A stretch of DNA of 59,308 bases, counting the filler, from Sphacelaria rigidula (taxonomy: Eukaryota): NCBI GenBank assembly GCA_964200075.2. It is 9 parts of 9 records of this genome, joined end to end, with 100 filler letters (N's around TTAATTAATTAA, not from the genome) between each part and the next. Parts side by side here need not be neighbours in the genome. Positions count along the whole stretch, not along the records: positions 26,407 to 32,907 come from CAXNAA020019708.1; 8 more parts are not named here. The stretch is one strand, 5' to 3'. Below the pieces are notes generated by a model that searched no databases, was not told the origin of the DNA, and worked only from the letters and a program-made list of their open reading frames with translations. Position numbers and translations under genes: made by a program. Every line of letters starts with the position of its first letter. The first letter of the stretch is position 1. This document shows, in pieces, positions 6,503 through 52,989 of the stretch.

Positions 6503-6602
6503 NNNNNNNNNNNNNNNNNNNNNNNNNNNNNNNNNNNNNNNNNNNNTTAATTAATTAANNNNNNNNNNNNNNNNNNNNNNNNNNNNNNNNNNNNNNNNNN
6601 NN
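6503..6602. other. Artificial contig linker (N-run + TTAATTAATTAA + N-run); identical linkers at 13105-13204, 19706-19805, 26307-26406, 32908-33007, 39509-39608, 46109-46208, 52709-52808
   Basis: Eight identical 100-bp spacers carrying a six-frame stop linker. The intervening pieces fall monotonically from 6502 to 6500 bp, i.e. size-sorted contigs. Confidence 0.97.
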
Positions 6603-11483: not shown

Positions 11484-11550
<67 letters not shown>

Positions 11551-11565
11551 GACAACAACAACGAC
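11484..11565. repeat. (AAC)n microsatellite with GAC interruptions
   Basis: Long AAC run, directly visible. Confidence 0.95.
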
Positions 11566-12468
11566 AGCGGGGATTGAGCAAAATACATTATGAACATCAT
11601 CCTGAAAAAACACCCAGCTGCGCATTTGTCATTGTAGGCAGCAAATCATAGATTCATAACACCCGTATTTCCGCAGTATATGTGCATCCCTCACCCCCTC
11701 CGTCCCCGCTACCGCACCAAGTAAGGTCTAGAAACATTTAGACCGAAAGGCGCACATCGCTTCTTGGGGGGGGAGGGGGGGGGAGGGGAACAAACAAAAA
11801 AGTATTGAAAAAAAAAACATCCAGGCACTGTGAAGAAAAAAAAATGCTGCGCTCATTTTTACTACTATTAATACCACCACAGTTAGGTGTGTGGCAGAGT
11901 GGGTGTAACCGTTCGAGAGTCCACGAGTGGAAAAGTCATTCTCCGAGTGAACATGTACATGGTGCCGGTTCAATAGAAAGATTTACACACACACACACAC
12001 ACAAACACACCTGGACGGTAAAAAGGGTCAACCTTCTGACTGCGAGGTGGTCATTTTCCGAAAACACGCACACAAAGAGCTTAGGTCGCTTGTAGTTCGA
12101 CGATACCGACGCCGTCTCGCACTCGCTACACCCCCCTAATCATTCATCTAAGGGGAGGAACAGCAAGTACGTGACCGAAAGTATCCGGTGACAGTTCAAC
12201 AAGGGCGCTCCGGGTGACGGTGCTGCTCTACCCCAAACCCTTTCAAACAGGAGGCGACTAGTGAACCTAACCAGACTTCATCCTCACCGTCTAGCCACGT
12301 AGCGCAGTGGGTGCTCCGACAAAAAAAAGTCTCAGGGGCATCACCTTGTGCGATGATAGATGGGTGGAGCCCATCGTTCATACGGACGATTTTCAGCACC
12401 GTTCAACTTTTTCTTGAACGGGAGTAAAACTGCCCCTCCCTTCCTTCCCTCGTCTCCCCCACCCTCAC

Positions 12469-12909: not shown

Positions 12910-13759
12910 CTGTATGTTTGCCCGTTCATTTTGTTAAGCATGTTTGTTTGTTGGGGGCGGGGATTGATTGCTGTCACACCAATAATCCGAACAACGTTGG
13001 TTGTACATCAGGCCCACAGATATGCATCCCCCCCCTCCCCGCGCGCGCGCCAGAATGTTGGAGGTGTCTCTATTAGGAGTAGGAACGGTGCTCCGTCTCG
13101 AAAGNNNNNNNNNNNNNNNNNNNNNNNNNNNNNNNNNNNNNNNNNNNNTTAATTAATTAANNNNNNNNNNNNNNNNNNNNNNNNNNNNNNNNNNNNNNNN
13201 NNNNAGGCAAAAAACGAGAAGGTATACCTTTTCTAGGCCATTGCCCTTATTTTTTTGTTTCCGTAAAAAGAACACACACCCATTCATCAGGATCTACTAT
13301 ATCAATGCCGCACCCCAACTCTCTCATGTCGCTGAGACTGTGCTACATGACAACCAAAAGCCGTTGTTTTCTAGGTAACGACGCACGCACGCATAAACAA
13401 TAAAAAAACGGGCCAGACACGGATGTTAGGAAACTCCGACACCCGGCACACAAGATTCAAGATGTTGTTCGTCGAACAACGAAACAAAAGACAACTTCAA
13501 GCAGCACCCCATGATAAAGTATAGACATGACAAAGGCTCGCAGTACGAGGGCCCGAGGTGCGTAGTTCCGTACATTTCCCCTTCCCCCACAACGAAAAGT
13601 CTTCGGCTACGCTACAAAATCCTGCAGTCCATATGCAACCTCCAGTGTTGACGGATATTGTACTTACTGTACAGAGCATAGGAACATCATCGGTGCTTAC
13701 TCGTAGTTGTGCCATGCACTATCGTGGTGGCGACAGCTGGCTAGGCTACACTAATTACT

Positions 13760-15559: not shown

Positions 15560-16345
15560 ATCCCCGTTGAGAACTGCCTTTTGGGCCCTTCTCCGTCGAT
15601 TTACGCCCGGAAAGAGGGATAGGTGAATGTTGACGCCTTGGAATGACTTGCTATACTCGTTGAGACCAGGGGCAACTTTGCATTCCCCGCTGGCCGCACT
15701 TTTGTTATTGGCCAAACCAGACCAAACACGGATTTTCAGTAAAAAACGGTCAGGTGATTGAACTTCGCCCCTGTTCCTTCATCTCTTCACCGTTCTCCAT
15801 TGAAAATACCACAGGCGCCGTAGGTAAGGTACCGTACTGAGCGTACCCCCGGTATTTTCCGGGGTATCCCATACCGTGGTATGCGTAGGTATCGTAGGTA
15901 TCACATATCAAAATACCGGATTGGGCCGGTACGGTAGGTATTGAAATCTCGAGATACCCTGGTATCGTAGGTATCGTAGGAATGAGTTTTGAAAATACCG
16001 GATTGGGCGGGTACGATAGGTATGACATTTGAAAATACCGGATTGGGCCGGTACGGTAGGTATTGAAATCTCGAAATACCCTGTTATCATAGATATCGTA
16101 GATATGACGTTTGAAAATACCGGATTGGGCGGGTACGGTAGGTATTGAAATCTCGAAATACCCTGGTATCGTAGGTATCGTAGGTATGAGTTTTGAAAAT
16201 ACCGGATTGGACCGGTATCGGTAGGGTATGACACGTCCCAAAAACCGGTACGGGGTACCTACCTTACCTACGGTGCCTGTGGAAAATACGTGTCTGGCCG
16301 AAACTGAAAGTGCAGACAAGGGGAAATGCAAAGTTGACGCGTTCC
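15560..16345. mobile_element. Degraded copy of the Harbinger-like foldback MITE, split by the 15810-16281 insertion
   Basis: 15567-15750 matches the left arm of 33711-34180 (CCTTCTCCGTCG..CGCCCG.AAAGAGGG.TAGG..ATGTTGAC.CCTTGGAATGACTTGCT). Right-arm-like sequence resumes after 16289. Confidence 0.7.
15810..16281. mobile_element. Non-autonomous DNA transposon with 8-bp TSD (P-element- or hAT-like) and internal tandem repeats
   Basis: TIR CACAGGCGCCGTAGGTAAGGTA ... TACCTTACCTACGGTGCCTGTG. Perfect flanking GAAAATAC at 15802-15809 and 16282-16289. Five internal AAAATACCGGATTGG-led repeats. Confidence 0.85.
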
Positions 16346-19300: not shown

Positions 19301-19819
19301 AATAAAATCAGACAAGATAACTAGTTCACCCTACACATGTTTTCTGACGCATCATGTACACGGTCTCAGCAACCATCTCTCGGTGCCTGCCTTTCGTTGA
19401 ACCCTTTCGAGGACACAGGCCGAACCACTTTTGGTCACTCGAAGCTGAGAGCTACTTCAGGCATTCAGTCGCCCAGCATAACGCAGTATTAACCGAACCA
19501 CGCCATTCGATACTCCCCTCTATTGATATATACTTGTTGTCAGTTGTTTTACTGCCTCTCCCCCCCCCCCCCTCCCCTCCCCCCCTTTCGGCGTTCCTGG
19601 TTATACACCCATGTGGCAGTGTATAAGCCGTGGCTGTCTCTGGAAGTGGCGATACCAAATAATAAAGCAACTCATTGTAGGCTGTCATCCAAATGCAAGA
19701 TTTTCNNNNNNNNNNNNNNNNNNNNNNNNNNNNNNNNNNNNNNNNNNNNTTAATTAATTAANNNNNNNNNNNNNNNNNNNNNNNNNNNNNNNNNNNNNNN
19801 NNNNNATCACGAGTCAACT

Positions 19820-26306: not shown

Positions 26307-26406
26307 NNNNNNNNNNNNNNNNNNNNNNNNNNNNNNNNNNNNNNNNNNNNTTAATTAATTAANNNNNNNNNNNNNNNNNNNNNNNNNNNNNNNNNNNNNN
26401 NNNNNN

Positions 26407-27100
26407 GGCAGCTTGTGGTGCAAACCTACCAACTCGCCCACAAATCGATCATCGGCAAAAAACATCAGCTTGTGAGGCCAAGCTGCCAAATCGCCCACAA
26501 ATCGATCATCGGCACAAAAAGGCAGCTTGTGGTGCAAACCTACCAACTCGCCCACGAATCGATCATCGGCGAAAAATGGCAGCTCGTGGTGTAAACCTGC
26601 CAAATCGCCCACATATCGATCATCGGCAAAAAACATCAGCTTGTGGTGTAAACCTGCCAAATCGCCCACATATCGATCATCGGCACAAGACGTCAGCTTG
26701 TGGTGCACAGCTGCCATATTTTGCCCACATATCGATCATCGGCAAAAAATGTCAGCTCGTGGGGCAAACTGCCAAATCGCCCACAAATCGATCATCGGCG
26801 AAAAATGGCAGCTCGTGCTGCAAACCTACCAAATCGCCCACGTATCGATCATCGGCGAAAAATGGCAGCTCGTGGGGTAAACCTACCAACTCGCCCACAA
26901 ATCGATCATCGGCAAAAAATGCCAGCTCGTGGTGCAAACTGCCAAATCGCCCACAAATCGACCATCGGCAAAAAAAGGCAGCTTGTGGTGCAAACTGCCA
27001 ACTCGCCCACACATCGATCATCGGCAAAAAATGTCAACTCGTGGTGCAAACTGCCAAATCGCCCACATATCGATCATCGGCAAAAAACATCAGCTTGTGG
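26407..27100. repeat. Tandem array of ~57-bp units (at least 12 copies, truncated by contig start)
   Basis: Unit starts at 26407, 26464, 26521, 26578, 26635, 26692, 26751, 26807, 26864, 26921, 26977, 27033, 27089. Consensus GGCAGCT(T/C)GTGGTG(C/T)AAA(C)CT(A/G)CCAA(A/C)TCGCCCACA(A/T)ATCGATCATCGGCAAAAAAN. Confidence 0.97.
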
Positions 27101-27164
27101 ACGCCCACGGCAGCCACCTGTCATCAATACAGGCAGTCAACAACTCAATAAATGTTTTATGTAG

Positions 27165-27195
27165 GAACCAATCAATCGATCGTTAACCAATCGCG
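27165..27195 (+). promoter_or_regulatory. Paired CCAAT boxes upstream of the 27294 ORF
   Basis: AACCAATCAATCGATCGTTAACCAATCG, followed by a C-rich leader ~100 bp before the ATG. Confidence 0.3.
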
Positions 27196-27293
27196 CAACA
27201 GCCCTCCCCGTGCTCACGCTTCCCCCACCACACCCACTCCGCCCACCCTTTCCCACTCTGATCACTCCCCACTCCGCACACTCCGCACCAACA

Positions 27294-27704
27294 ATGAGCT
27301 CCAACGATGACTACACGACGCCAACAAAAACGAGGAAGCCATCTCCCCCGGCTGCTCCCGCCAGGAAGAGGCTGAAGAAGACGTTGGCACCAACTGAAGA
27401 TGCTCTACTTCTGGTTTACATCAACGACGATGGACAGTTGGTCAACTATTCAAGCAACCACACCGTGTTGTCCGGGATTAAGGGACACCACGATAATATA
27501 GAGTTTTTGTCGGATGAGCTTTTCGAGGGCGTGCTCGGCGTCGTTGGTGGCAACGGATATTCTTCTGTCAGCCGCGACATGTATTTCGAAGACGAGATCG
27601 AGGAGCTTAAGAAAAAGGCTTTGATCAAGCTGTTTGGGCAAGAGGTTCACGGCGGCGGGGAGGCGCAGGCCGGCGAAGTGTTCCGGGGAACGATGGTGAT
27701 CTAG
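27294..27704 (+). CDS. Intronless hypothetical protein (136 aa), putative viral; basic NLS-like N-terminus
   Basis: ACAATG start, uninterrupted ORF MSSNDDYTTPTKTRKPSPPAAPARKRLKK...GEVFRGTMVI*. Natural amino-acid composition; converges on the next gene 73 bp away. Confidence 0.7.
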   Translation: MSSNDDYTTPTKTRKPSPPAAPARKRLKKTLAPTEDALLLVYINDDGQLVNYSSNHTVLSGIKGHHDNIEFLSDELFEGVLGVVGGNGYSSVSRDMYFEDEIEELKKKALIKLFGQEVHGGGEAQAGEVFRGTMVI

Positions 27705-27777
27705 GCGTTTTTTAAAAACGCACCCCGGGGTTTTGTAGAGATATGCATTTTTTTGGCGACATGATGGCTCTTAATCA

Positions 27778-28362
27778 TTATAATCCGTCCCAGCAACCAC
27801 ATGCACGCAGCGGCACGCAACAGACACACAACATTCCGATGGCAACGGCCAACATGTACCCGAATGTGGCAAGCGCTCGTGCATCTGCGTGAAGCCTCAC
27901 ACAAGATGCTAAATAATCCTCGTGTAGAACAATCATCGACGCACAGTCGCTATACCCGCTACTATCCATCACGTAACGCATCTCCCAACCGAGCGACGGC
28001 GAGTTCCTCGGATGAGAATCACAGACGGAGTCTGTTTCATAAAAGTCCGTGCTTTCGATGATAGCAATTGCGACGTTCTCCGGCACGTAGTCCCAACACT
28101 TTTTTCCTATCGGATACCGAACGGCCAAAGTGACACCTAGTGTAAAAATCTGAGACATGTACGACACAGTCCTCAGATCTGTGTCGATGTGCACTTGGCA
28201 CTCGCCCGAAGTCGTGTTCCAAATCTGAGCGCTGTCTCTTGAAGAACAAACCGCCAGGTCATCCCATTCGTGGGCGAAGTCCGTGCAGATTGTTCCACAT
28301 GGAGTCCCGGAGGCGGAAGCCACGCAGAAGAGAAGAACTGTGCCGAAGAAAAACGATTTCAT
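27778..28362 (-). CDS. Intronless Cys-rich type I membrane (glyco)protein, 194 aa, putative viral
   Basis: Signal peptide MKSFFFGTVLLFCVASASG; Cys-rich ectodomain with an NTT sequon; C-terminal hydrophobic segment ALATFGYMLAVAIGMLCVCCV; ends TAA TGA. Confidence 0.75.
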   Translation of the reverse strand: MKSFFFGTVLLFCVASASGTPCGTICTDFAHEWDDLAVCSSRDSAQIWNTTSGECQVHIDTDLRTVSYMSQIFTLGVTLAVRYPIGKKCWDYVPENVAIAIIESTDFYETDSVCDSHPRNSPSLGWEMRYVMDSSGYSDCASMIVLHEDYLASCVRLHADARALATFGYMLAVAIGMLCVCCVPLRACGCWDGL

Positions 28363-28451
28363 GGTTGAAGCAATGTTTGATGCTCTGTTGTACCAAAGCT
28401 TGTGTCAACGTTTCCATGTAATTTCTGACATTTTCAGCGTTTATTTTGTAG

Positions 28452-31400
28452 ATGTTTATGTACATGATGCATTCAAAGGTTGTTCTTGTTGTCGCCTTAG
28501 TCGTCGTGGGGGCGATCCTTTTCGCAACTACCAGAAAAGGTGACGCCACGAACGAGGCCCCCCAGAAAACATGGGTAAGTCGAGACGAGATAGCTCTGAC
28601 AGCAAATGCCATCATCGGCGAGTTGGACGAGGAGGCCATGGAGGCCCTGCCGTCAGATCTGAAGCCCAACACCGACGTCCTCTCTCTTACGGATGCGGAG
28701 AAGACATAACTTTTCGCCATCCTCAACAGCGTGAACGACAGCGGCGTCTTGGGCGCATTGGGTTCAGCCAGCCCCCTTGGTTCATCGGCGATGACGGAGC
28801 TCGTGAAAACCAAAAGTCACATCACGGACAAGATTCGTCGATACGAAGCTCGCATGACATCCCTGAAAAAGCAAATCAACGAGACGAAAGATTTCAAAAG
28901 GAAAGTACAGCTCGCCGCCGAAGTTAAAAAAACAGAGGGCGTTATCAGCCGCAACAAGGCCGCCCTGCAAAGTACCAACAAAAAAATTGAACCACTGAAA
29001 GCGAGTCAGAAAAAAACACAGAAGACTGCTCCTACGAAAGCTCTTGTGCAAGTCGTTATGGCTGGAGGATCTGACGCGAAAGTCAAGTCCCTGATGGATC
29101 AGGCGAAAGAACTGGAAGCCAAGTATGACTCCTTGCTTACGAAACGTGCAACCCTGCACAAACAAGCTGACGACTTGGAGAAAAAAGCCATGACGGAGCT
29201 CGTGAAAACAAGGAATCATATCACAGACAAGATTCGTCGATACGAAAATCACATGAAAAAAGCAAGGTCTGTCGCGGAAATAAAAAAAGCAGCGGGCGTT
29301 GTTAGCCGCAACAAAGCTGCTCTTAAGATTACCATAAAAAGATTGACGAAGTGGAAGCGGAAAAGATGAGTTCTGAAAAAACATTTCAGACTACGAAAAG
29401 ACTGATCGATAGCGTTGTCAAGTCGAGCAAAATGATTCAGGGCAAGATTGAAGCTGAAAAGAGGAGGATTGCTGATGAAAAAAAGCAAGCTTCGGCAAAG
29501 GCGCGAAAGGCGGAGCAGGCTAAACAAAAGGAGGTGGTCGCCAAAAAGCTATTGAAAATGAGCGAAGTAATAGCTGCTGCGAAAAAAGCTGAAGCAAGAA
29601 AAGCAAAATTGGTACTCGAACGACAAGCCCCGGAGGCAAAGCGGCGCGCCAAGAAGGCACAAGAGCTGGCACTCGCGCAAAAAGCACACAACGAAAAGGT
29701 GGCCGAAGCCGACCGTGCTCGCAGGCAATTTGAGGAAGCTCGGGCAAAAAAGGAGGCCGATGCGCTCGCGAAGAGAAATGCCGAACTTCGACGTAGGAAA
29801 GATCAGCTCAATCATGAGGCTGCGCTTGCTAAAGCGGCGATCGACGCCAAGCGCAACGAGGAAAAAAGACGCGCGGAAGCTGCAAAGGCTAGGATGAAAG
29901 CGAAAGAGGCAAAGCTAAAAGAAAAGGCGGCACAGGCGTTAGAGAAGGCAGAGAAAATCAAGTCTGAAGGGCTGCGCAAAAGAGTGCAGGATGCTATCCG
30001 GAAAAAAGCTGCTGATCAACAAAAGTAACGACAGGAGGCTGCCAAGAAGATGGCAGACATCGCTCTGCAGATGCAGAAAAGTCTCCATGAAAGGAGCGAA
30101 GGCTGATGGAGAAACAGCAGAAAGATGCCGCCGATTTTCGTCGCAAGCAGCAGGAGATGGCGAGGCTCGAGGAGATGGCGAAGGCGAGAGCCAAAGACCA
30201 AGCCGCAAAAGCTGCACAAGCGGCCGCTGATCAGAAGCAACGCGAGCTTGACCAGAAGAAGCATGACCAGCAAGCCCGTGCCTTGAGACAGAAACAGTTG
30301 GATCTGGAGAGGGAGAAAGAGGCGAAAAGGGTCAAGGCGACCGCCGCCCTTGATAAAGCGAAGAGAGACGCGGTTGCTAAGAAGGCCGACGCGGAAAAGA
30401 AGCGTCGCGAGCATATGGAAGCCCGAGCTCGCTTGCTCAGGCACAAGACCGAAGAAGCTGAGAAGGCGAAGAAAAAGCAAGTCTCCGAACTGGAAAAGGG
30501 TATCGAGAAAATTGCTGGAATGAGCACTGATTCTGTCGACCTTTCCGGTCTGGATAGGGCCGTTCTTTTGGAGCTGGAGGTTTTCATCAAAGCTTCCGGC
30601 GGACATCGTATTCTACCAGCCATTGTCAAGATGATCGAACTCAAGTCCAAGAAAGAAGAGGAAAAAGAGGCGCAGAACGTCGACGCCGCCGCCGACGACG
30701 AAGAGAAGCCGATGACGGACGAGAAAATCCACGATGACTTTTTGAACAACGTCAGGAGGATCACGGGGATTGAAAAATATGGCCTTGGGAGCATGATTGC
30801 ACTGGACATGGATGTGTTGGAAGAATTGTTGGCATACACCAAAACCCTGACGACCGGGCGGTTGGCTGGATTTGCTCAAGATGTGAAAGGATTTATTTTC
30901 TGGAAGAAATTAATCACCGTCGGCAAACAATGCGGTGTCATGATCATTCCCGGTTTCAAGCCGGAAAGAGTGGACTGGTCTGGCGTGGACGTCATGGGTA
31001 TGGACAAGATTATCGAGTTCTTGAAATCTGAACCACGCTTCGGCGAACGTTGGCTCAACGTAATCCAGGTAGTCCGCCAGAGCAAGGTGGTGGAGCTTGC
31101 CGCACAAAGGGAAGCGGCCGAGGAAGCACTTGCCACAAAGCAGGCGGCGGAGTAGGAAGCAATCGAGAAAGCTCGCGTTGCCCAGGCGGAGAAGGACCTC
31201 GAGGAGGCTGCCGTGAAACTTGAGCAGGATGGCAAAAAGCTGGACACCGAGATAGCCAAGGTGGACCAGGCCGTCTCCGCCGATAAAGAACGCGTGGTTA
31301 CCGAGCATCAGAAAGATGTGAAAACCATCGAGCGCGAGCACGAGAAAGAGAAACAAGTTATGATCGAAGAAATGAGGAAGGGACTGAAGGAGGTTGTGGA

Positions 31401-32304
31401 AGAGGTCGCCGTTGAGTCCCGTGAACGAATCGAAGAGGCCGATGCTGCGCGTGAGAGCAAGCTCGTGGAAATGAAACAGGAACAGGCCGAGGTGGAAAAT
31501 GAGTAGAGTGCCGAAGCGATCGAAGCCGCTGTCGTCATTCAAGTCGAGATGTCGACCACTCAAGACCAGGCCGTTGCCGAAGCACTTCGGCAAAAGCTTC
31601 GCGAAGATCAAGAGGATCGAGCCAGGGCTCTGGAGGATACGAGAAATGCCCATGTTCTTGAACAAGAGGCCGTGGTCGAAGAGACCAGAGTCCTTTAAGA
31701 AGAGATTGAGAAAAGCATCGCGTCTAAGATCAAGGAAGAGAGTACGGTTGCCCAAGAAAAGTTGGAGTCTGTCGTTGAAACCATAGAAGAAGAAAAGCAA
31801 GACTTGATTGAAAAGAAAGAAAAGGTTCAGGAGATCGAGTTGGAGAAGGTAGACCTCGAGGGTAATATCCAGACCGACCTTCTGGAACAAGATAAACGCA
31901 ATGTCGAAGAGGAGAAGAAAATCGTCGAAGAAACTACCGCCGACGATGTAGTGGACGAGGCCGTTCATCCTCGCTCGTCCAAGGAAGATGGAGTCACGGT
32001 GTCGAGGAAATAGAACCCGAATGGGTCAGTCTTCATTAAAATAAGTGTACCTAGTGATATGTCTCCCGGTGAATCCGATACTGTTTCTGTTTTCTTGTCG
32101 AAGGAGGCGGGAGTACTGTTGGAACAGTACCACCAGATTTACAAGAATATTGGGGGAGACGGTTCCCTTGAGGCCGTGTCCGCCGACGAAAAGAAAGTGT
32201 TGGCTTCGGCGGGCGCCGAGTTTGAAAGGATTAGGGAGCAGTACGTTCAGCAGAGAAAGCAGAAGGTGTTGGAACGTCGCGAACAGTTGGTGGCTCGATT
32301 TTAA
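28452..32304 (+). pseudogene. Disrupted ~1,280-codon intronless gene: N-terminal membrane anchor plus long K/E/A-rich coiled coil, putative viral
   Basis: Seven track ORFs join into one reading path. In-frame stops: TAA 28707, TAA 30026, TAG 31153, TAG 31504, TAA 31696, TAG 32011. One-base deletions in A-runs near 29336 and 30090. N-terminus SKVVLVVALVVVGAILFATTRK; final TAA 32302-32304. Confidence 0.85.
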
Positions 32305-32340
32305 GACAAAATATAATGTTGATGTAATACGAGACGAATT

Positions 32341-32865
32341 ATGCCTACTCCATGTGCTGCACCAACGTGCCACCGGACTCGACCAAGACAAAGGCCCGGA
32401 CGGAGGACCCTACCAGGAAAATGCGTAAGACCGAACCCCTGGAATGCCTTCCGGACGCGCGTCAGCGGTCAGGGACGTTCGAAGGACGAAATGTCGCTCA
32501 TGTACAACACGTGGAAGCAAGACTGGTTGATCGCACACCCCGGTTTGAGTCGCTCTGACGCGAGGGCCGCAATGAATGCAACATTGTGCGAACAAATCGA
32601 CGAAGCCAATCGTCGTATGGCAGAGCCGCGAAGGCGCGCACCTCTTTTGACCGCAAGTAGAGACGATCGACGCAGGCGAGCCCGCGAAAGGGCCCGCGGG
32701 AACAGGCCGGGAAGGTTTTTTGCTAAAAAAGACATTCCTGACGGCTGGTCGCTGAATGCTCACGTGTCAGCAATGAGTTTCCCGTTCATGTTTGAGCATC
32801 GACCTAGGTCGGGAGGCCTGTTGTCAAACACGAGCAAACAGCAAATTGTGAGGATTGAGGTTTAA
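32341..32865 (+). CDS. Intronless Arg-rich protein with HMG-box-like helix motif, putative viral DNA-binding protein (3' end possibly disrupted)
   Basis: Starts 36 bp after the previous gene. Contains RPNPWNAFRTRVSGQGRSKDEMSLMYNTWKQDW and an Arg-rich tract; coding-like codons continue past TAA to the contig end. Confidence 0.6.
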   Translation: MPTPCAAPTCHRTRPRQRPGRRTLPGKCVRPNPWNAFRTRVSGQGRSKDEMSLMYNTWKQDWLIAHPGLSRSDARAAMNATLCEQIDEANRRMAEPRRRAPLLTASRDDRRRRARERARGNRPGRFFAKKDIPDGWSLNAHVSAMSFPFMFEHRPRSGGLLSNTSKQQIVRIEV

Positions 32866-33710
32866 CTCTGAATTGAGGCTCAAGTGGGCAACCCAACTTG
32901 CGAACTGNNNNNNNNNNNNNNNNNNNNNNNNNNNNNNNNNNNNNNNNNNNNTTAATTAATTAANNNNNNNNNNNNNNNNNNNNNNNNNNNNNNNNNNNNN
33001 NNNNNNNAACCCGGCGGGGTCCGTCTCACCCTTGTAGGGATGGGAGGTCAATGGGCTTACGACTATGGCAAGCATGATCATGAGTACCCCCCCCCCCCCC
33101 CCCTCCCCTCCTTCCTGCAGAAACATAGAGCAAAGCGAGACGTGCAGCAATTGACAACGATTACACCCTATAAGAGGGTGGTTTCAGCTTCAGTGTACCC
33201 TCTCCCCCCCATTGGGAGTCAGCGATAGAGCGAGACACTCGTGGCTACTCTCAATGTAGCACCCCCTTGCTCGTGACGTAGGTCGGATCAGCAGACGGTC
33301 TTGGCGTCGCCACGCCTTCTCGACTCCTCCGTCCCCTCCTCCGCTCTCATGTTCCATCTGCCTACATTCAGTGGTCGTGACGCAAGATTCGGAATATTTG
33401 ACCTCAACACCGTACAATACACCCACTCACCACTCTGTTCGTTCTTCCTCGAGTAATATACCCCCTAGGGCCCGAATATTCTTCTGGAGGCGACCCTCTC
33501 AGTATCTAGAGGATCGGACACGTTTCCTTAGCCTCGTGTGAAGAAAACCGCCGCAACATGGTGCGCTTGGGGCCACGCGTTTCGTACTGGCGGAGGAAGA
33601 CCCCCGCGAAGCAGAATTGGCGCCGGCGGAGGATCGTCTCGATACGTTCGCATCTGACAGCTGCGTCACTTCAACAACTGTACTGTGCTGTGTTGGAGCT
33701 GAGAGGCTTA

Positions 33711-34180
33711 GGACACTTCTTATGTATCAGAATATAAACGGTTGAAGAGTGCAGTTTCGGCCCTTCTCCGTCGAGTTTCGCCCGAAAAGAGGGCTAGGCG
33801 GATGTTGACACCTTGGAATGACTTGCTCCACACGCTGAGACCGTTCCAGAGCACCTTTGCGTTTTCCGTAGGTCACAGTTTCGTCTTTGGCCAAACTTGC
33901 ATTTTCAATGACAAACGGTCAAAAGTTATCGAAAAACAGGGGGGAAACTGACATTTTTTTTTATTACTTGACCGTTTGTTATTGAAAGTGCAAGTTTGGC
34001 CAAAAACGAAACTGAACTGCGGGAAACGCAAAGGTGCTCTGATACCGTCTCAGCGAGTAGAGCAACTTATTCCAAGGTGTCAACATCCACCTAGCCCTCT
34101 TTTCGGGGGGAAACCGACGGAGGAGGGTCAAAAATGAACTTTTCAACAAGTTTCATTTTTTTTATACATAAGAAGTAGCC
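33711..34180. mobile_element. Harbinger/PIF-like foldback MITE (470 bp, ~220-bp inverted arms)
   Basis: TTA|GGACACTTCTTATGTAT ... ATACATAAGAAGTAGCC|TTA. The arms are complementary over nearly the whole length. Confidence 0.88.
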
Positions 34181-34183
34181 TTA

Positions 34184-34654
34184 GGCCACTTCTTATGTAT
34201 GCGAAATAAATCTGGTTGAAAAGTGCAGTTTCGACCCTTCTCCGTTGATTTTCGCCCGAAAAGAGGGCTGGGCGGATGTTGACACCTTGGAATGACTTGC
34301 TCTACTCGCCGAGACCGTTCCAGAGCACCTTTGCATCTTCCGCAGGCCACAGTTTCGTTTTTGGCCAAACTTGCATTTTCAATAAAAAAACGGTCAAGTT
34401 ATAAAAAAAGTGGGTGTTCTCCCCCCATTTTTTTAATAGCTTGACCGTTTGTTATTGAAAATGCAAGTTTGGCCAAAAACGAAACTGTGACCTGCGGAAA
34501 ACGTAGAGGTGCTCTGGAACGGTCTCAACGAGTAGAGCAAGTCATTCCTAGGTGTCAACTTCCGCCTAGCCCCCTCTTCGGGCGAAAACCGATGGAGAAG
34601 GGTAAAAATTGCACTTCTCAACAAGATGTTTTCCCTTGTACATGAGGAGTGGCC
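34184..34654. mobile_element. Second Harbinger/PIF-like foldback MITE, directly abutting the first
   Basis: TTA|GGCCACTTCTTATGTA ... TACATGAGGAGTGGCC|TTA. It shares the TTA at 34181-34183 with the previous copy. Confidence 0.88.
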
Positions 34655-35454
34655 TTAGATGACATTTGAATATCATTCAAAGCGGTGAGCGACTTCAAAA
34701 CCATTCACCTGTAGCATGCAGTATAGAAGAGACTCTCCGTGAGCAGCAGAGAATGGGAACAAGGAAGCCAAGGCTGGCAGTACATGGGGATAAGAGCGCA
34801 AAACTACTCGCGTCCGGGCCGACAAACACGCATGCAGTCAAACAGCAAGCCAGGGTGTATTCCGTATTTTGCGGCCGCGGTTCACCGTTCGATATTTTTG
34901 TTTTCGCATGTGCGATGAAACGACAAAGCTTGGCATGTGTCCACTTCGTCACTTCGAGGTGTGGTGAACATGTGCTGCATCATGTTCAAGACGCTTTTCA
35001 CCATACAGTTGGCAATTGGCAACTGGGATTTGGCGTTCGGCAGTTCCGCATCAAGCGTCCCGCCGTACACGTTTGTCACAACTCTTTCTTTTTTTTCTTT
35101 CCATTTTCCTCATTGGACGGACCAGCCGTCGATCTACACGCTACGGTCGATTAAAACGGTAAACTGCAGAACCAAGATGTACAAACGAAGCAGACGGAGA
35201 AAAAAAAAAGAAAACAACTGAAGTAGTCAGCTAGTGACTGGACCAAGACAAAAACCAGTTCTTCATGTGCTATGGTACGACCACAGAACACCAGTCCTAT
35301 GCTGTGCAAGTCGACCGAAACACGGAAGACGAAGGATGAAGCTATGCACCGCTGGGTCACCCGTCATTTGTTTTACGCAAAAACAATTTCCGTCGACGCC
35401 TTCGAAGCACCCTCCGTCTCAAGTGATACCCCATTCTCCTCTGTAACTACTGTA

Positions 35455-38694: not shown

Positions 38695-40001
38695 TTAACC
38701 ATATGTTATGTTGCTGCAGTCCTTTTGATTGGTTGGCTGTTTTTTGCGCATTAACCAATCCGCTACGATTTCGGCCGTCGTCACAAGACAGGTGTTCCGA
38801 GGGTAAGTAAACGGTACACACGCGCGCGCTGAGGGATTCTCGATGAAGGGAGGACACGAAAAATTAAAAAAATTAAAGAGAGATGTAACAGAATAGAGGA
38901 AACTGTGCAAACAGATGCAAATAAAAGAGGAGAAAGGCGAAGAGAAAAGAGGAAAGTGAGGCAAGAAATACCACGCCGACATCTCCGGTGCCGCTCCCGA
39001 AAAATAACAGAGACGGCAGGCTCCCGCCACATTGGCTCCGGTGAGGAGGCCGCACGAGAACAAAACACGAAACGAAGTGAAATAATTCCTCTTTTCCCCA
39101 CTTCCATGTGAACTCTGCCGGGTTCTTCTTATCTGCATTACAAACGAGTACCGCACAGTTGTTAACGTTCGCTCCTAGTGTATTTTAGCGCCTTGTCTAT
39201 CTGTTTCTTTAATCCTTCTGCTGCTCCTGAAATCCCCACAACATCGTCCGCGAACACCAATCAACCCTGATACCAGATCTTTACCCACCTTGACTCTTTG
39301 CTTCGCTGCTTCTATTTCTATTATCAGGTCACCAGTAAACACCTTGAACAGAGTGGGATAACGTACATCCTTGTGCAACTCCTTGTAAAATATAAAAATA
39401 TTTCGATATTTCCCCGTCCAGCATCATGGCAATTTTGGCACGTTCTGTCATGTCTTCGCCATTCTCCACATCTTTCCTCTGATTCCAGCTTCCCACAACT
39501 TCTTCCACNNNNNNNNNNNNNNNNNNNNNNNNNNNNNNNNNNNNNNNNNNNNTTAATTAATTAANNNNNNNNNNNNNNNNNNNNNNNNNNNNNNNNNNNN
39601 NNNNNNNNCCCGATCCGGGGAAAATCCGGCGTGCCCCCTTCCGGCTTTGTAGGGATGCGAGGTCAATGGTCTTATGACTATAGCCCGCATGATCATGAGG
39701 GCCCCCCCCCCCCCCCCCCCCCTTCCGTCATCTTCTCATGGAAAGTGCATTTGTCGCCCATGATGTTTCTCTATAAATCGACGGTAAACCAATGCTTCAT
39801 CCATACAGTATACCTACACCACATCTCCTTCATCGCGAAACCCGTGTCTTGGTTATGAGAGAACGCGGAAATGTACAGTGTCTCACAGTATAAAGCTCGA
39901 GACGATGGCAACGAAAAGACTCATGCCGAGTGCCTCAGGGTTGATGCGAGGGGGCACGGACATGGCCACCCGATAAAGCGGAAAAAATCTGTGCTACAAA
40001 C

Positions 40002-44724: not shown

Positions 44725-46374
44725 TAACGGGGTGACAAATAGTCAAAGTCGGTGTAAAACCGGTTAGTATGCAGGTATGCAGTATTTGCAGGATACCCGA
44801 CGACTTTGTTACTACAACAGTACTACAGTTACTGTTTCAGACGGTGCAGCATCCGACTTGTATTTAGTTCATGTTTTTCAGGTAGACACAAGAGGCATCA
44901 CTGGCACACACGTATGCAACCCTTCAAAATGACAGGGAGTGCAGTCTCGTGCTCCCATGATCACATGAGAATCATTGCCGCGGCATCTCGGTACACCCTT
45001 TAATACTATATGCCGTGCTGTACTGTATATACACGATAGATAGCCATCTCACGGACAAACTGGTGGGGTTGAGAGGGTTTCCGTGCAGCGCGTAGAAGGA
45101 GAATATGTTCCAAAGTTCATCTTCTACATCCGTCATGGCCAAATGCGATCGAAAGATAGGGCGCAGGCACCACCCGTTGGCTGCGACGCAGCTATCATCA
45201 AGCGGAGGTTTGCTAGTGCTGACGGCTCTTATTCCGCCGCACAGTGCGGTGTAACTTTATTTTTCGCGGCGGAATTCCGCCCACGAGCTTACTTCGTCCT
45301 GCCGAGGGACGCACAGATGGCTCGCCAGGAATCTACCTGCTTTGACCTATCTTATGTATGCGATAAAGCTCATGTACTAGCACATATATCCGGGTCGAAA
45401 GAATCGCGAACCGTATTTATCAACGGGGGAAAGTTGAGGTCCTCATGTCCAGACGGCGGCAAGTGTTGCCCTTCGTTCCAAACTGCCCTCATCACACGTC
45501 TCCCGTGGGGGCCGATACAGCTGTCACTCCGCGCGGTCGATTTCCGTGTTCCAGGACATGCGCTACTTACAGTACATGTAGAAGTCGAAAGAGCACTAAC
45601 AGCGGCGGCGTTAAGGTTGCAACGGCTTGTGCACGCCCCCAACATGTGTCCTTGTGCGAGAGTCTGCAGGCAACGGAAGCAGTAGGGGATCGAGGCAGGG
45701 CTCCCGTGATGTCAGGTGGGGTTGGCCAAATAGTACGGTAAAACCGGGAGCCTTTGGCAGTCAAAAATGACCACCAACTTGCAAGGTCCACGTGTTGGTA
45801 TGACTTTGATGTTGATCATGTGGTAATTTGGCTCATGGGGAACAGTGTGAGGTGCAAGAGCGTAAGATCCAGGATACTGTTCTGAGATCGTTGGTAGAGA
45901 AGGCGGCAGGTTAGCTGATGCGAAACGTTACTCTTCAGATTGATCCTCAGAACATTCTCCCTCGTGTTTTCTCATTTTCGTTCCTGAATCGACTACGTGG
46001 GCCAGCCTGAAAACGGATTTAAGCTCTCAAGGCAATCGAAATGGGAAAAACCGAGCACAACGAGAAGCTGAGAATTCCCACGCTTGGGTTCGTTCTAGCC
46101 AATGTCGTNNNNNNNNNNNNNNNNNNNNNNNNNNNNNNNNNNNNNNNNNNNNTTAATTAATTAANNNNNNNNNNNNNNNNNNNNNNNNNNNNNNNNNNNN
46201 NNNNNNNNTTTTCGGTATTTTTGGTGGACCGACTCGATCCGGATTATATAAGTGAAGACTTCAAAATGATTTTTTTTTAAATTCCACCTAGTCCCTGGGC
46301 TCAAGCAGGAAAACTATGTTTCTTGGACCATTTACGGTCAACACCACCCTCGTGATATTCGGGGTCTTTACCCG

Positions 46375-52400: not shown

Positions 52401-52989
52401 CATATTGGGCCTCGTGAGGGGCATTTGGTAACTGAAACAATTAATTCAGTGATTGACCGCTTCTCACTCTCAATCTCAAGAAACCAGTTTGTCCTGTGTC
52501 TTCGGAGCAAGTAGCCGGAGTAGCAGCAAACGTGGCACAGAAAATAGGATCCCTGCTGGCGAACAACCGCTCCAGAGTGCGCCCCGTTGTGCGACCCATC
52601 ATTTGAGGCACTTTTCATCATTTTTTCGCAATACTGTATAACAAACAATTGTGCGAATTGAGGTTCAACTCCGAGATGAGGTTCAAGCCTAAAACAGTGC
52701 TTTCCCCANNNNNNNNNNNNNNNNNNNNNNNNNNNNNNNNNNNNNNNNNNNNTTAATTAATTAANNNNNNNNNNNNNNNNNNNNNNNNNNNNNNNNNNNN
52801 NNNNNNNNGTCGTTGACTGTACGTTATGAAGTATAAACACCACCTGAGCTGTTACATCTTGAAGTTCAAGTTATGTCCTTGCTAAAACAATCTAGCACAG
52901 TGATGAAAGCTAGATTGCACTGTGTTTTTATTATTTCACATGAAGGATCGAATCTCTCAGCCGCTGTTACGAACATCGTTTTGCATCGT

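What the first reader, a model, noticed from the sequence alone, without database searches (positions are those of the whole stretch)
28452..32304. Giant ORF interrupted only by TAA/TAG codons: C->T decay or TAR=Gln recoding
Seen: all six premature stops on the repaired reading path are TAA or TAG (28707, 30026, 31153, 31504, 31696, 32011) and none is TGA. Gln fits each context (AEKT*LFAIL, DQQK*RQEAA, QAAE*EAIEK, ENE*SAEA, TRVL*EEIEK, SRK*NPNG), and several CGA and TGG codons remain intact. Both frameshifts are repaired by adding one A to an A-run, so they could be homopolymer errors. In-frame TGA follows closely after three of the four terminal stops (TAA TGA; TAA CTC TGA; TAA + 5 codons + TGA). 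Inference A (preferred, because most Gln codons are still CAA/CAG): CpA->TpA decay of a silenced viral insert, RIP- or methylation-like, which would be notable if the host is a brown alga with little canonical 5mC. Inference B: an intact gene using the TAR=Gln code known from ciliates and some ulvophytes. Six events are too few to prove a bias.
Basis: partly seen in the sequence, partly recalled or inferred. Interest (0 to 1): 0.75.

Follow-up and report, generated by a model that had tools for sequence, protein, structure and literature searches.

The report
Dead copy of a brown-alga virus gene
This is a broken, non-functional copy of a large gene from a brown-alga giant virus, and its stops are all TAA or TAG simply because the protein is rich in lysine and glutamate, not because of an unusual genetic code or a special mutation process.

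Summary
The sequence facts hold. On the + strand path 28452-32304 there are six in-frame stops, all TAA or TAG, and two -1 frame changes at short A runs.

The gene is a full-length homolog of EsV-1-171 of Ectocarpus siliculosus virus 1 (63% identity). It lies next to intact homologs of EsV-1-169 and -170 in the same order.

- **TAR = Gln is refuted.** Homologs carry E, K/R/N, L, Q/L, K and R/S/N/T at the six sites, so Gln appears at one site only. TAA and TAG also end all three genes where the homologs end.
- **A C->T / CpA->TpA process is not supported.** C>T+G>A counts 9 against 10 for the reverse, there are 0 CpA>TpA changes, and composition matches the intact EsV-1 gene.
- **TAR-only is expected by chance.** Of all one-step nonsense paths in this Lys/Glu/Gln-rich ORF, 86-91% give TAA or TAG, so P(6 of 6) is 0.41-0.56.
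- **The lesions are not sequencing errors.** Contigs from three runs of two studies carry every one of them.

Verdict: an ordinary, recently inactivated viral pseudogene. The window is nine unrelated ~6.5-kb contigs joined by spacers, so a host context is not shown.

The parts
26409..27100 (.). 57-base tandem repeat, 12.2 copies, at the 5' end of the 6501-base piece that holds the finding. It is context only. The Logan contigs of X1 and X2 end inside it.
27294..27704 (+). Intact homolog of EsV-1-169 (136 aa from the first ATG). It ends in TAG, one codon past the end of the EsV-1-169 match, and EsV-1-169 also ends in TAG.
   Evidence: 62.6% identity over 139 aa; omega 0.14
27778..28362 (-). Intact homolog of EsV-1-170 (194 aa). 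By eye it has a hydrophobic N-terminus, many Cys and a hydrophobic C-terminus. It ends in TAA, followed directly by TGA.
   Evidence: 65.1% identity over 192 aa; omega 0.24
28452..32304 (+). Pseudogene: a full-length but broken homolog of EsV-1-171. The likely homologous start is near 28464, where the tblastn match begins.
28707..28709 (+). In-frame TAA. Homologs have E in 5 of 6; the distant P0014 has M. The EsV-1 codon is GAA.
28788..28995 (+). First copy of an internal duplication within the coding path.
29187..29345 (+). Second copy of the duplication (121 of 159 aligned bases identical, with a 42-base gap). It is absent from all 7 homologs. Both copies match the one EsV-1 segment L001 10333-10399.
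29336..29340 (+). First frame change (frame 0 to 2, a shift of -1), at a run of 5 A at the end of the second duplicate copy. The old frame runs into TGA at 29367.
30026..30028 (+). In-frame TAA. Homologs have K, R, N, K, R, K. The EsV-1 codon is AAG.
30090..30092 (+). Second frame change (frame 2 to 1, a shift of -1), at a run of 3 A. The old frame runs into TGA at 30104.
30493..31131 (+). Stop-free stretch encoding the non-coiled middle domain of the family (213 aa). It was used as the search query.
31153..31155 (+). In-frame TAG. Homologs have L in 6 of 6. The EsV-1 codon is TTG.
31504..31506 (+). In-frame TAG. Homologs have Q, Q, L, Q, L. The EsV-1 codon is CAG. This is the only site where Gln occurs.
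31696..31698 (+). In-frame TAA. Homologs have K in 5 of 5. The EsV-1 codon is AAG.
32011..32013 (+). In-frame TAG. Homologs have R, S, N, T, T, and the metagenome locus L002 adds N. The EsV-1 codon is CGG.
32302..32304 (+). Terminal TAA. It lies in the same alignment column as the C-termini of P0003, P0005 and P0006. EsV-1 runs 2 residues longer and P0013 runs 1 longer.
32341..32800 (+). N-terminal part of a protein whose longer relative P0011 carries a Ulp1-type Peptidase_C48 domain. The similarity fades about 100 bases before the piece ends at 32907. No catalytic part was found anywhere in the window.

Best explanation
Window 28452-32304 is a dead copy of the phaeovirus gene EsV-1-171. The parent gene encodes a ~1,230-residue protein of unknown function. 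It has an N-terminal membrane anchor, a long basic helical stretch, a small non-coiled middle domain, a long acidic helical stretch and a conserved C-terminal region.

The copy was under purifying selection for most of its divergence from EsV-1. It then lost constraint recently, at roughly 3.5% neutral divergence by inference. Since then it has collected ordinary, unbiased point mutations (six nonsense codons) and two one-base length changes at short A runs.

The stops are all TAA or TAG because AAA, AAG, GAA, GAG, CAA and CAG dominate the codon content, and each is one step from TAA or TAG. Codons one step from TGA are rare. The standard genetic code applies.

The copy most likely sits in an inherited, decaying viral insert of a brown alga. 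The 6.5-kb contig shows no host junction, so that last step is inferred.
For: **Identity of the gene**
- One search finds 5 homologs, the best being EsV-1-171.
- One search gives 765 of 1220 identical residues over the full length.
- Searches show the same gene order as EsV-1 (169, 170, 171), with 69-76% DNA identity over 27286-32289.

**Chance expectation**
- P(TAR) is 0.86-0.91 and P(6 of 6) is 0.41-0.56. The share of TAR paths coming from CAR is 0.15-0.41, against 1 of 6 observed.

**Standard code**
- Gln occurs at 1 of 6 stop sites. E, L and K are unanimous or nearly so at three sites.
- in 109 columns where homologs are unanimous E, K or L, the window has Gln 0 times and a stop 3 times.
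- TAG or TAA stands at the homologous C-termini of all three genes, and the two neighbours have no in-frame TAR.

**Lesions are real**
- X1 and X2 each cover 28300-32450 in one contig with 0 other letters and 0 gaps. The X4 pieces cover all 8 lesions with 0 and 0. X1 may be the source; X2 and X4 belong to another study.

**Recent loss of constraint**
- omega is 0.32 against EsV-1. Six nonsense hits on 517 paths give about 0.035 per site.
- window-private against EsV-1-private replacements are 132/134, 156/126, 82/81 and 30/31.
- P(no nonsense codon in 169+170) = 0.21, so the intact neighbours are not surprising.

**Literature**
- Passages read in PMC11890097 and PMC2373305 describe frameshifts, partial genes and pseudogenes as usual in brown-algal phaeovirus inserts.
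Against: - No host-virus junction is on the 6501-base piece, so integration is not shown. The holding runs are labelled only 'algae metagenome' and a coded organism.
- Two neighbouring genes are intact. This would also fit a replicating virus that tolerates loss of this gene.
- Only EsV-1 DNA was available at the stop sites. Two of them (AAG against TAA) need two steps from the EsV-1 codon, and sites 30026 and 32011 are variable among homologs, so their ancestral codons are not known.
- The 3.5% figure rests on six events. My own Poisson reckoning, not from a call, puts it at roughly 1.3-7.6%.
- The internal duplication is about 24% diverged. It is therefore older than the inactivation and may have been part of a working gene. 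I did not test this.
Confidence: 0.88

Rival explanations
1. The gene is intact and read with TAA and TAG as Gln (NCBI table 6 type code), with TGA as the only stop.
For: All six internal stops are TAR. TGA follows soon after two of the terminal TAR codons. Under table 6 the last 743 codons form one frame.
Against: - Homologs have Gln at 1 of 6 sites, and E, L and K are conserved at three.
- The window never uses a normal Gln codon at 109 columns where homologs are unanimous E, K or L.
- Two frame changes remain under any code and are present in three runs.
- TAA and TAG stand exactly where homologs of 169, 170 and 171 end.
- Five relatives (1229-1254 aa) were called as full-length proteins, and the EsV-1 gene itself reads through under the standard code to a TGA stop.
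Confidence: 0.01
2. The stops are products of a directed C->T process (CpA->TpA, RIP-like or methylation-driven deamination) acting on a silenced insert.
For: One stop (31504, TAG) aligns with CAG/Gln in EsV-1 and in two other homologs. Two of the three low-depth variants in run X5 are C>T.
Against: - Five of six stop sites do not align with Gln. The EsV-1 codons are GAA, AAG, TTG, AAG and CGG.
- Of 44 window-private single-base replacements, C>T+G>A is 9 against 10 for the reverse. None is of CpA>TpA type and 25 are transversions.
- Over 980 differences from EsV-1, the C/G-to-T/A class is smaller than its reverse, 252 against 301. CA or TG to TA is 26 against 29.
- GC is 0.507 against 0.498, CpG o/e 1.13 against 1.18 and TpA/ApT 0.48 against 0.45. 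RIP cut-offs as I recall them, from no call, are above about 0.89 for TpA/ApT.
Confidence: 0.03
3. The stops and frame changes are assembly or sequencing errors in an intact gene.
For: Both frame changes lie at A runs.
Against: - Independent per-run contigs of X2 and X4, from a different study than the possible source X1, carry the identical sequence with no indels at depths of 65 and 10-25.
- X4's loose ends start or end with GATC. I read this as a Hi-C short-read library, which is an inference.
- The runs of A are only 5 and 3 bases long.
- Six nonsense substitutions are not a homopolymer error type.
Confidence: 0.02
4. The contig comes from a virus genome that can still replicate or be reactivated, in which gene 171 is dispensable and is being lost, rather than from a dead insert.
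For: - Neighbours 169 and 170 are intact with low omega.
- No host junction is seen.
- There is no excess of amino-acid replacements in the window lineage.
- A Nature Microbiology paper reports in its abstract that Ectocarpus viral elements can reactivate (PMC13236599, abstract in the listings).
Against: - Intact neighbours are expected by chance under neutral decay (P = 0.21).
- The family is kept at full length in five relatives.
- Synteny with EsV-1 ends right after 171, at a partial Ulp1-like gene.
Confidence: 0.1

Closest known systems
EsV-1-171 of Ectocarpus siliculosus virus 1 (P0002, 1233 aa; named by its sources)
   Same: Full-length colinear similarity (63% identity). The neighbours 169 and 170 are the same and in the same orientation. 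It shares the N-terminal hydrophobic anchor and the conserved C-terminal region.
   Different: The window copy has six nonsense codons, two frame changes and an extra internal duplicate of about 160 bases. The EsV-1 gene is open and ends in TGA.
Decayed phaeovirus inserts of brown algae (Ectocarpus viral DNA pieces, PMC2373305; Porterinema fluviatile EVEs, PMC11890097; passages read)
   Same: Viral genes kept in local order but diverged, with pseudogenes, frameshifts and partial genes.
   Different: No host flank is available here, and only three to four genes are visible on a 6.5-kb contig.
TAA/TAG = Gln nuclear codes (NCBI table 6; taxa as named in the tool text)
   Same: Only the superficial pattern of in-frame TAA and TAG without TGA.
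   Different: The stop sites are not Gln positions, TAR terminates the genes, and frame changes are present.
Repeat-induced point mutation of fungi (recalled; no call)
   Same: It would create TAA and TAG from CAA and CAG.
   Different: There is no C>T excess, no CpA>TpA changes and no AT enrichment.

Membership tests
EsV-1-171 protein family (phaeovirus-restricted) | Significant sequence similarity along the whole length | tested here: met
   E = 6e-75 for the middle domain; 765 of 1220 residues identical; three tblastn segments cover EsV-1 residues 1-1233.
EsV-1-171 protein family (phaeovirus-restricted) | Genomic neighbourhood as in EsV-1 (169 on +, 170 on -, 171 on +) | tested here: met
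EsV-1-171 protein family (phaeovirus-restricted) | One open reading frame of about 1,230 codons | tested here: not met
   Six stops and two frame changes. It is a pseudogene of the family, not a working member.
TAA/TAG = Gln genetic code | In-frame TAR at positions where homologs have Gln | tested here: not met
   1 of 6 sites. 0 Gln and 3 stops at 109 columns unanimous for E, K or L.
TAA/TAG = Gln genetic code | TGA as the only terminator | tested here: not met
   TAG ends the 169 homolog. TAA ends the 170 and 171 homologs where their homologs end.
TAA/TAG = Gln genetic code | In-frame TAR spread over many genes of the organism | tested here: inconclusive
   The two linked genes have none. 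No genome is held, and the other pieces of the window are unlinked contigs.
RIP-like / deamination hypermutation | Excess of C>T and G>A over the reverse changes | tested here: not met
   9 against 10. 252 against 301.
RIP-like / deamination hypermutation | Dinucleotide preference (CpA>TpA) and a shifted composition | tested here: not met
   0 of 44. 26 against 29. GC, CpG and TpA/ApT equal the intact EsV-1 gene.
RIP-like / deamination hypermutation | Cytosine methylation of the locus | not testable with these tools
   No bisulfite or long-read signal data were available.
Endogenous viral element | Virus-derived genes with disabling mutations | tested here: met
Endogenous viral element | Junction with host chromosomal DNA | not testable with these tools
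   The piece is 6501 bases. It ends in a tandem repeat on one side and near 32907 on the other. The Logan contigs stop at about the same places.
Endogenous viral element | Presence in DNA of several samples of the organism | tested here: met
   Runs X2-X5 carry one coded organism label, with three samples from one study. X2-X4 hold 0.97-1.00 of the sampled words and X5 holds 0.52. X1 comes from another study. The sequence is identical in X1, X2 and X4. The samples may be one strain.

The most novel reading that the evidence does not exclude
The broken 171 copy, with its intact neighbours, belongs to a phaeovirus genome that is still latent or able to replicate. In that case this conserved, phaeovirus-only gene is dispensable and was caught in the act of being lost. 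The gene encodes a 1,230-residue protein with a membrane anchor followed by basic and then acidic helical stretches. That would give a first functional handle on a family with no annotation: only 6 clusters among 1.84 billion representatives and no Pfam family.
Probability: 0.08. Interest if true: 0.35.

Novelty: new member of a known kind. Interest (0 to 1): 0.12.

Why it matters
- **A caution for sequence-only scans.** In any Lys/Glu/Gln-rich (coiled-coil type) ORF, random nonsense mutations are about 90% TAA or TAG. A 'TAR-only' pattern there is not evidence for codon reassignment or for C->T hypermutation.
- **One more documented decaying phaeovirus gene.** Its time since inactivation is short relative to its divergence from EsV-1.
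- **A poorly known family.** EsV-1-171 is a very small, virus-restricted family of unknown function.
- **No bearing on DNA methylation.** Nothing here informs that question for brown algae.

Tried and rejected
- **Whole-genome context.** No genome is held for the window. The EsV-1 record behind L001 is not held for search.
- **Expression.** No RNA holder was listed for the stretch, so expression was not tested.
- **Earlier scan notes.** Nothing was found by place, sequence or words.
- **Pfam.**
  - None of the 8 fragments of the gene reaches a family cut-off, and 169 and 170 have none.
  - 0 of 112 ORFs of at least 100 aa elsewhere in the window match at E <= 1e-4. I gave 112 of the 133 listed and left out the 21 in 27165-32025. 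Those ORFs lie on unlinked contigs, so the result says nothing about this locus.
  - P0002, P0013 and P0014 have no Pfam family.
- **PDB by sequence.** The best E is 0.27, so nothing usable.
- **ESM Atlas.** No usable hit for the 393-aa ORF of another piece or for EsV-1-171 residues 600-850.
- **Structure prediction of the middle domain.** No fold is available.
- **Viral-contig scans with two window ORFs.** No relatives were found.
- **Metagenome scan.**
  - Repeated with P0006 alone, it gave one 1006-base locus, L002.
- **Closer relatives to polarise the mutations.** None was found. The 90% clusters of P0012, P0009, P0002, P0003, P0005 and P0006 are singletons, and P0013's has 2 members.
- **Literature.**
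  - 'EsV-1-171' returned 0 papers.
  - ORF171 variants gave 47 papers, and none of the 15 listed concerns phaeoviruses.
  - PMC13236599 holds no passage on pseudogenes, frameshifts or coiled coils. Its supplements, and those of PMC11890097, were not opened and might list the 171 orthogroup.
- **Rfam and tRNA scans of the window.** Both returned 0.
- **Programmed frameshifting or slippage.** I rejected it by eye. The A runs are 5 and 3 bases, there is no X XXY YYZ heptamer in frame, and six nonsense codons would remain.
- **The joint 28517>30942 in X4.** I rejected it as a deletion variant. Both ends lie at GATC sites, and X4's other loose ends carry GATC, which I read as Hi-C ligation.
Full report
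**What is in the sequence**

- Frame 0 runs from 28452. The frame moves to frame 2 at the A run 29336-29340 and to frame 1 at the A run 30090-30092.
- In-frame stops are TAA 28707, TAA 30026, TAG 31153, TAG 31504, TAA 31696 and TAG 32011. The final TAA is at 32302.
- The path has 1281 codons and no in-frame TGA. After each frame change the abandoned frame soon meets a TGA, at 29367 and 30104.
- The ORF is rich in Ala (13.6%), Lys (13.4%) and Glu (12.8%). Gln makes up 5.6%.

**What the window is**

The 59,308 bases are not one molecule.
- Pairs of 44-N runs occur every ~6,601 bases. Between each pair lies TTAATTAATTAA, a spacer that stops all six frames.
- The nine pieces measure 6502, 6502, 6501, 6501, 6501, 6501, 6500, 6500 and 6500 bases. 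They look like length-sorted separate contigs.
- The finding lies in piece 26407-32907 (6501 bases). The database entry for its 349-aa fragment also gives a longest contig of 6501.
- Only that piece is physical context. My Pfam blank on 112 ORFs elsewhere concerns unlinked contigs. No genome is held.

**What the gene is**

- A word-index search with the stop-free middle part found five relatives. The best is EsV-1-171 of Ectocarpus siliculosus virus 1 (1233 aa, E = 6e-75). The others measure 1254, 869 (partial), 1234 and 529 aa.
- An exhaustive phmmer of 1.84 billion representatives found only six clusters. These are the window's own fragment, three of the above, a 1229-aa protein at 39% identity and an 809-aa protein at 30%.
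- None of these proteins has a Pfam family.
- A MAFFT alignment of the path to five relatives gives 765/1220 identical residues to EsV-1-171. Each stop and each frame change was written as X. Identity to the other four is 54-63%.
- I fetched the EsV-1 locus as L001. Its ORFs for 169, 170 and 171 match window 27288-27698 (+), 28362-27790 (-) and 28464-32307 (+), in the same order and orientation.
- At DNA level, similarity of 69-76% runs from 27286 to 32289 and nowhere else in the window.
- The 169 and 170 homologs are open.
- Downstream, 32341 to about 32800 encodes the N-terminal part of a protein whose longer relative carries a Ulp1-type Peptidase_C48 domain. The similarity fades about 100 bases before the piece ends.
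- Upstream lies a 57-base tandem repeat of 12 copies.

**Are the lesions real?**

- Five public runs hold half or more of the stretch's sampled words. X1 is labelled an algae metagenome and may be the source. X2-X5 share one coded organism and belong to another study.
- I laid the contigs of four of the five holders, X1, X2, X4 and X5, on 28300-32450. X1 and X2 each cover the whole stretch in one contig with 0 other letters and 0 gaps.
- X4's pieces cover all six stops and both frame changes with 0 and 0.
- X5, at depth 2-5, shows three single-base differences (29617 C>T, 29872 C>T, 31807 A>G), none at a lesion. It leaves some parts uncovered, including 31153.
- No insertion or deletion was listed in any run. 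The frame changes are therefore in the DNA and are not homopolymer errors.
- X4's loose ends begin or end with GATC, and its one joint (28517>30942) lies at GATC sites. I read this as Hi-C ligation, not a variant; that is an inference.

**Is 'TAR only' more than chance?**

No.
- From the ORF's own sense codons I counted every single-base change that creates a stop. AAA, GAG, AAG and GAA give 88, 84, 83 and 79 paths to TAA or TAG. CAG and CAA give 43 and 29, and TTG gives 25. The TGA precursors AGA, CGA and GGA give 13, 12 and 10.
- TAA plus TAG take 0.907 of all paths at a transition/transversion weight of 1, and 0.862 at a weight of 8. All six being TAR therefore has probability 0.41-0.56.
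- Only 0.15-0.41 of TAR-creating paths start from a Gln codon. About one to two Gln-derived stops are expected among six.

**Test of TAR = Gln**

With seven relatives aligned, the residues at the six stop sites are:

| Stop site | Homolog residues |
|---|---|
| 28707 | E, E, E, E, E, M |
| 30026 | K, R, N, K, R, K |
| 31153 | L, L, L, L, L, L |
| 31504 | Q, Q, L, Q, L |
| 31696 | K, K, K, K, K |
| 32011 | R, S, N, T, T |

- A metagenome locus adds N at the last site.
- The EsV-1 codons at these sites are GAA, AAG, TTG, CAG, AAG and CGG.
- Gln therefore occurs at one site only.
- As a baseline, there are 109 columns where at least four of six relatives are unanimous for E, K or L. There the window has an ordinary Gln codon 0 times, yet three of the stops fall in such columns.
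- The terminal TAA of the window copy lies in the same column as the C-termini of three relatives, and within two residues of the other two.
- The 169 homolog ends in TAG one codon past the end of its match to EsV-1-169, which also ends in TAG. The 170 homolog ends in TAA within about one residue of the EsV-1-170 end.

**Test of a C->T / CpA->TpA process**

- At 447 columns where at least four of five relatives agree, the window differs from the EsV-1 codon by a single base 44 times.
  - The counts are A>G 9, G>A 6, G>T 5, A>C 5, C>G 4, C>T 3, G>C 3, T>A 3, A>T 2, C>A 2, T>C 1 and T>G 1.
  - That makes 19 transitions and 25 transversions.
  - C>T+G>A is 9 against T>C+A>G 10.
  - None is of CpA>TpA type and two are of CpG type.
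- Across all 980 aligned differences from EsV-1:
  - Sites with C/G in EsV-1 and T/A in the window number 252, against 301 for the reverse.
  - At third positions the counts are 134 against 147.
  - CA or TG against TA is 26, and the reverse is 29.
- Composition equals that of the intact EsV-1 gene. GC is 0.507 against 0.498, CpG o/e 1.13 against 1.18, TpA/ApT 0.48 against 0.45 and (CpA+TpG)/(ApC+GpT) 1.30 against 1.24.
- No hypermutation signature is present. The divergence from EsV-1 is large (dS 0.76), so a weak recent bias could hide. A closer relative would be needed to see it, and none was found.

**When did it die?**

- Nei-Gojobori omega against EsV-1 is 0.32 for 171, 0.14 for 169 and 0.24 for 170. 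Most of the divergence therefore happened under selection.
- Relative-rate counts of private amino-acid replacements, window against EsV-1, are 132/134, 156/126 and 82/81 with three different outgroups. They are 30/31 where three outgroups agree. The window lineage shows no excess.
- Six nonsense hits on 517 paths imply about 0.035 neutral changes per site since constraint was lost.
- At that level 1.57 nonsense codons are expected in 169+170 together. Finding none has P = 0.21. The intact neighbours need no special explanation.

**An extra feature**

- The window copy holds an internal duplicate: 29187-29345 repeats 28788-28995, with 121 of 159 aligned bases identical and a 42-base gap.
- All seven relatives lack it. 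Both copies match the single EsV-1 segment L001 10333-10399.
- The first frame change lies at its 3' end.
- Its divergence is far above 3.5%. The duplication therefore probably predates inactivation; this is an inference.

**What the parent protein looks like**

This comes from the alignment and simple composition.
- One strong hydrophobic segment at residues 9-27 (mean Kyte-Doolittle 2.52).
- A basic stretch from about residue 110 to 620 (27% K+R, almost no Pro or Gly).
- A middle domain from about 620 to 850 with Gly and Pro.
- An acidic stretch from about 850 to 1190 (27% E+D).
- A conserved C-terminal region.

I infer a membrane-anchored, largely helical structural protein, possibly of the virion or its assembly site. 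This was not tested. PDB sequence search, Pfam and the Atlas gave nothing, and structure prediction could not be run.

**Comparison with the literature**

- Passages read in PMC2373305 describe EsV-1-like pieces in Ectocarpus DNA with pseudogenes kept in EsV-1 order.
- Passages read in PMC11890097 describe frameshifts, partial proteins and fragmentation of phaeovirus inserts. They also note that most brown algae lack DNMT1.
- The present locus is another case of that known kind.
- Searches for 'EsV-1-171' and ORF171 variants found no paper on this gene.

**Verdict**

The recoding idea is refuted, the C->T idea is unsupported, and the error idea is refuted. What remains is an ordinary, recently inactivated copy of a phaeovirus gene. 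That it is integrated in a host chromosome is likely but is not shown on this contig.

Noticed in passing
window 6503-6602, 13105-13204, 19706-19805, 26307-26406, 32908-33007, 39509-39608, 46109-46208, 52709-52808: The window is nine separate pieces of 6500-6502 bases, joined by N44-TTAATTAATTAA-N44 spacers. The pieces are length-sorted contigs, not one locus. Any reading that uses context across these spacers is unsound.
   Followed up: yes
window 26409-27100: A 57-base tandem repeat of 12.2 copies (85% matches) lies at the start of the piece, just upstream of the EsV-1-169 homolog. The per-run contigs of X1 and X2 break inside it.
   Followed up: partly
window 32341-32800: An ORF homologous to the N-terminal part of proteins P0010 and P0011. 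P0011 carries a Ulp1-type Peptidase_C48 domain. The catalytic part is not in the window, and EsV-1 has no such gene at this position in the 23.7 kb fetched.
   Followed up: partly
window 28517 and 30942 (run X4): One X4 contig joins these two places, skipping 2424 bases. Both ends are at GATC sites, and most X4 loose ends carry GATC. This looks like Hi-C ligation rather than a deletion allele.
   Followed up: partly
window 29617, 29872, 31807 (run X5): Three single-base differences (C>T, C>T, A>G) appear in low-depth contigs of one sample. They may be polymorphism or error, and none touches a stop or frame change.
   Followed up: no
window 27778-28362 (-): The EsV-1-170 homolog looks like a small Cys-rich membrane glycoprotein, with a hydrophobic N-terminus and C-terminus. 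It is fully intact beside the broken gene and has no Pfam family.
   Followed up: partly
window 33707-34658 and 15871-16233 (other pieces): Other unlinked contigs hold long tandem repeats: a 474-base unit in 2 copies, units of 40, 82 and 122 bases, and an (AAC)27 run at 11485-11566. Their origin was not examined.
   Followed up: no
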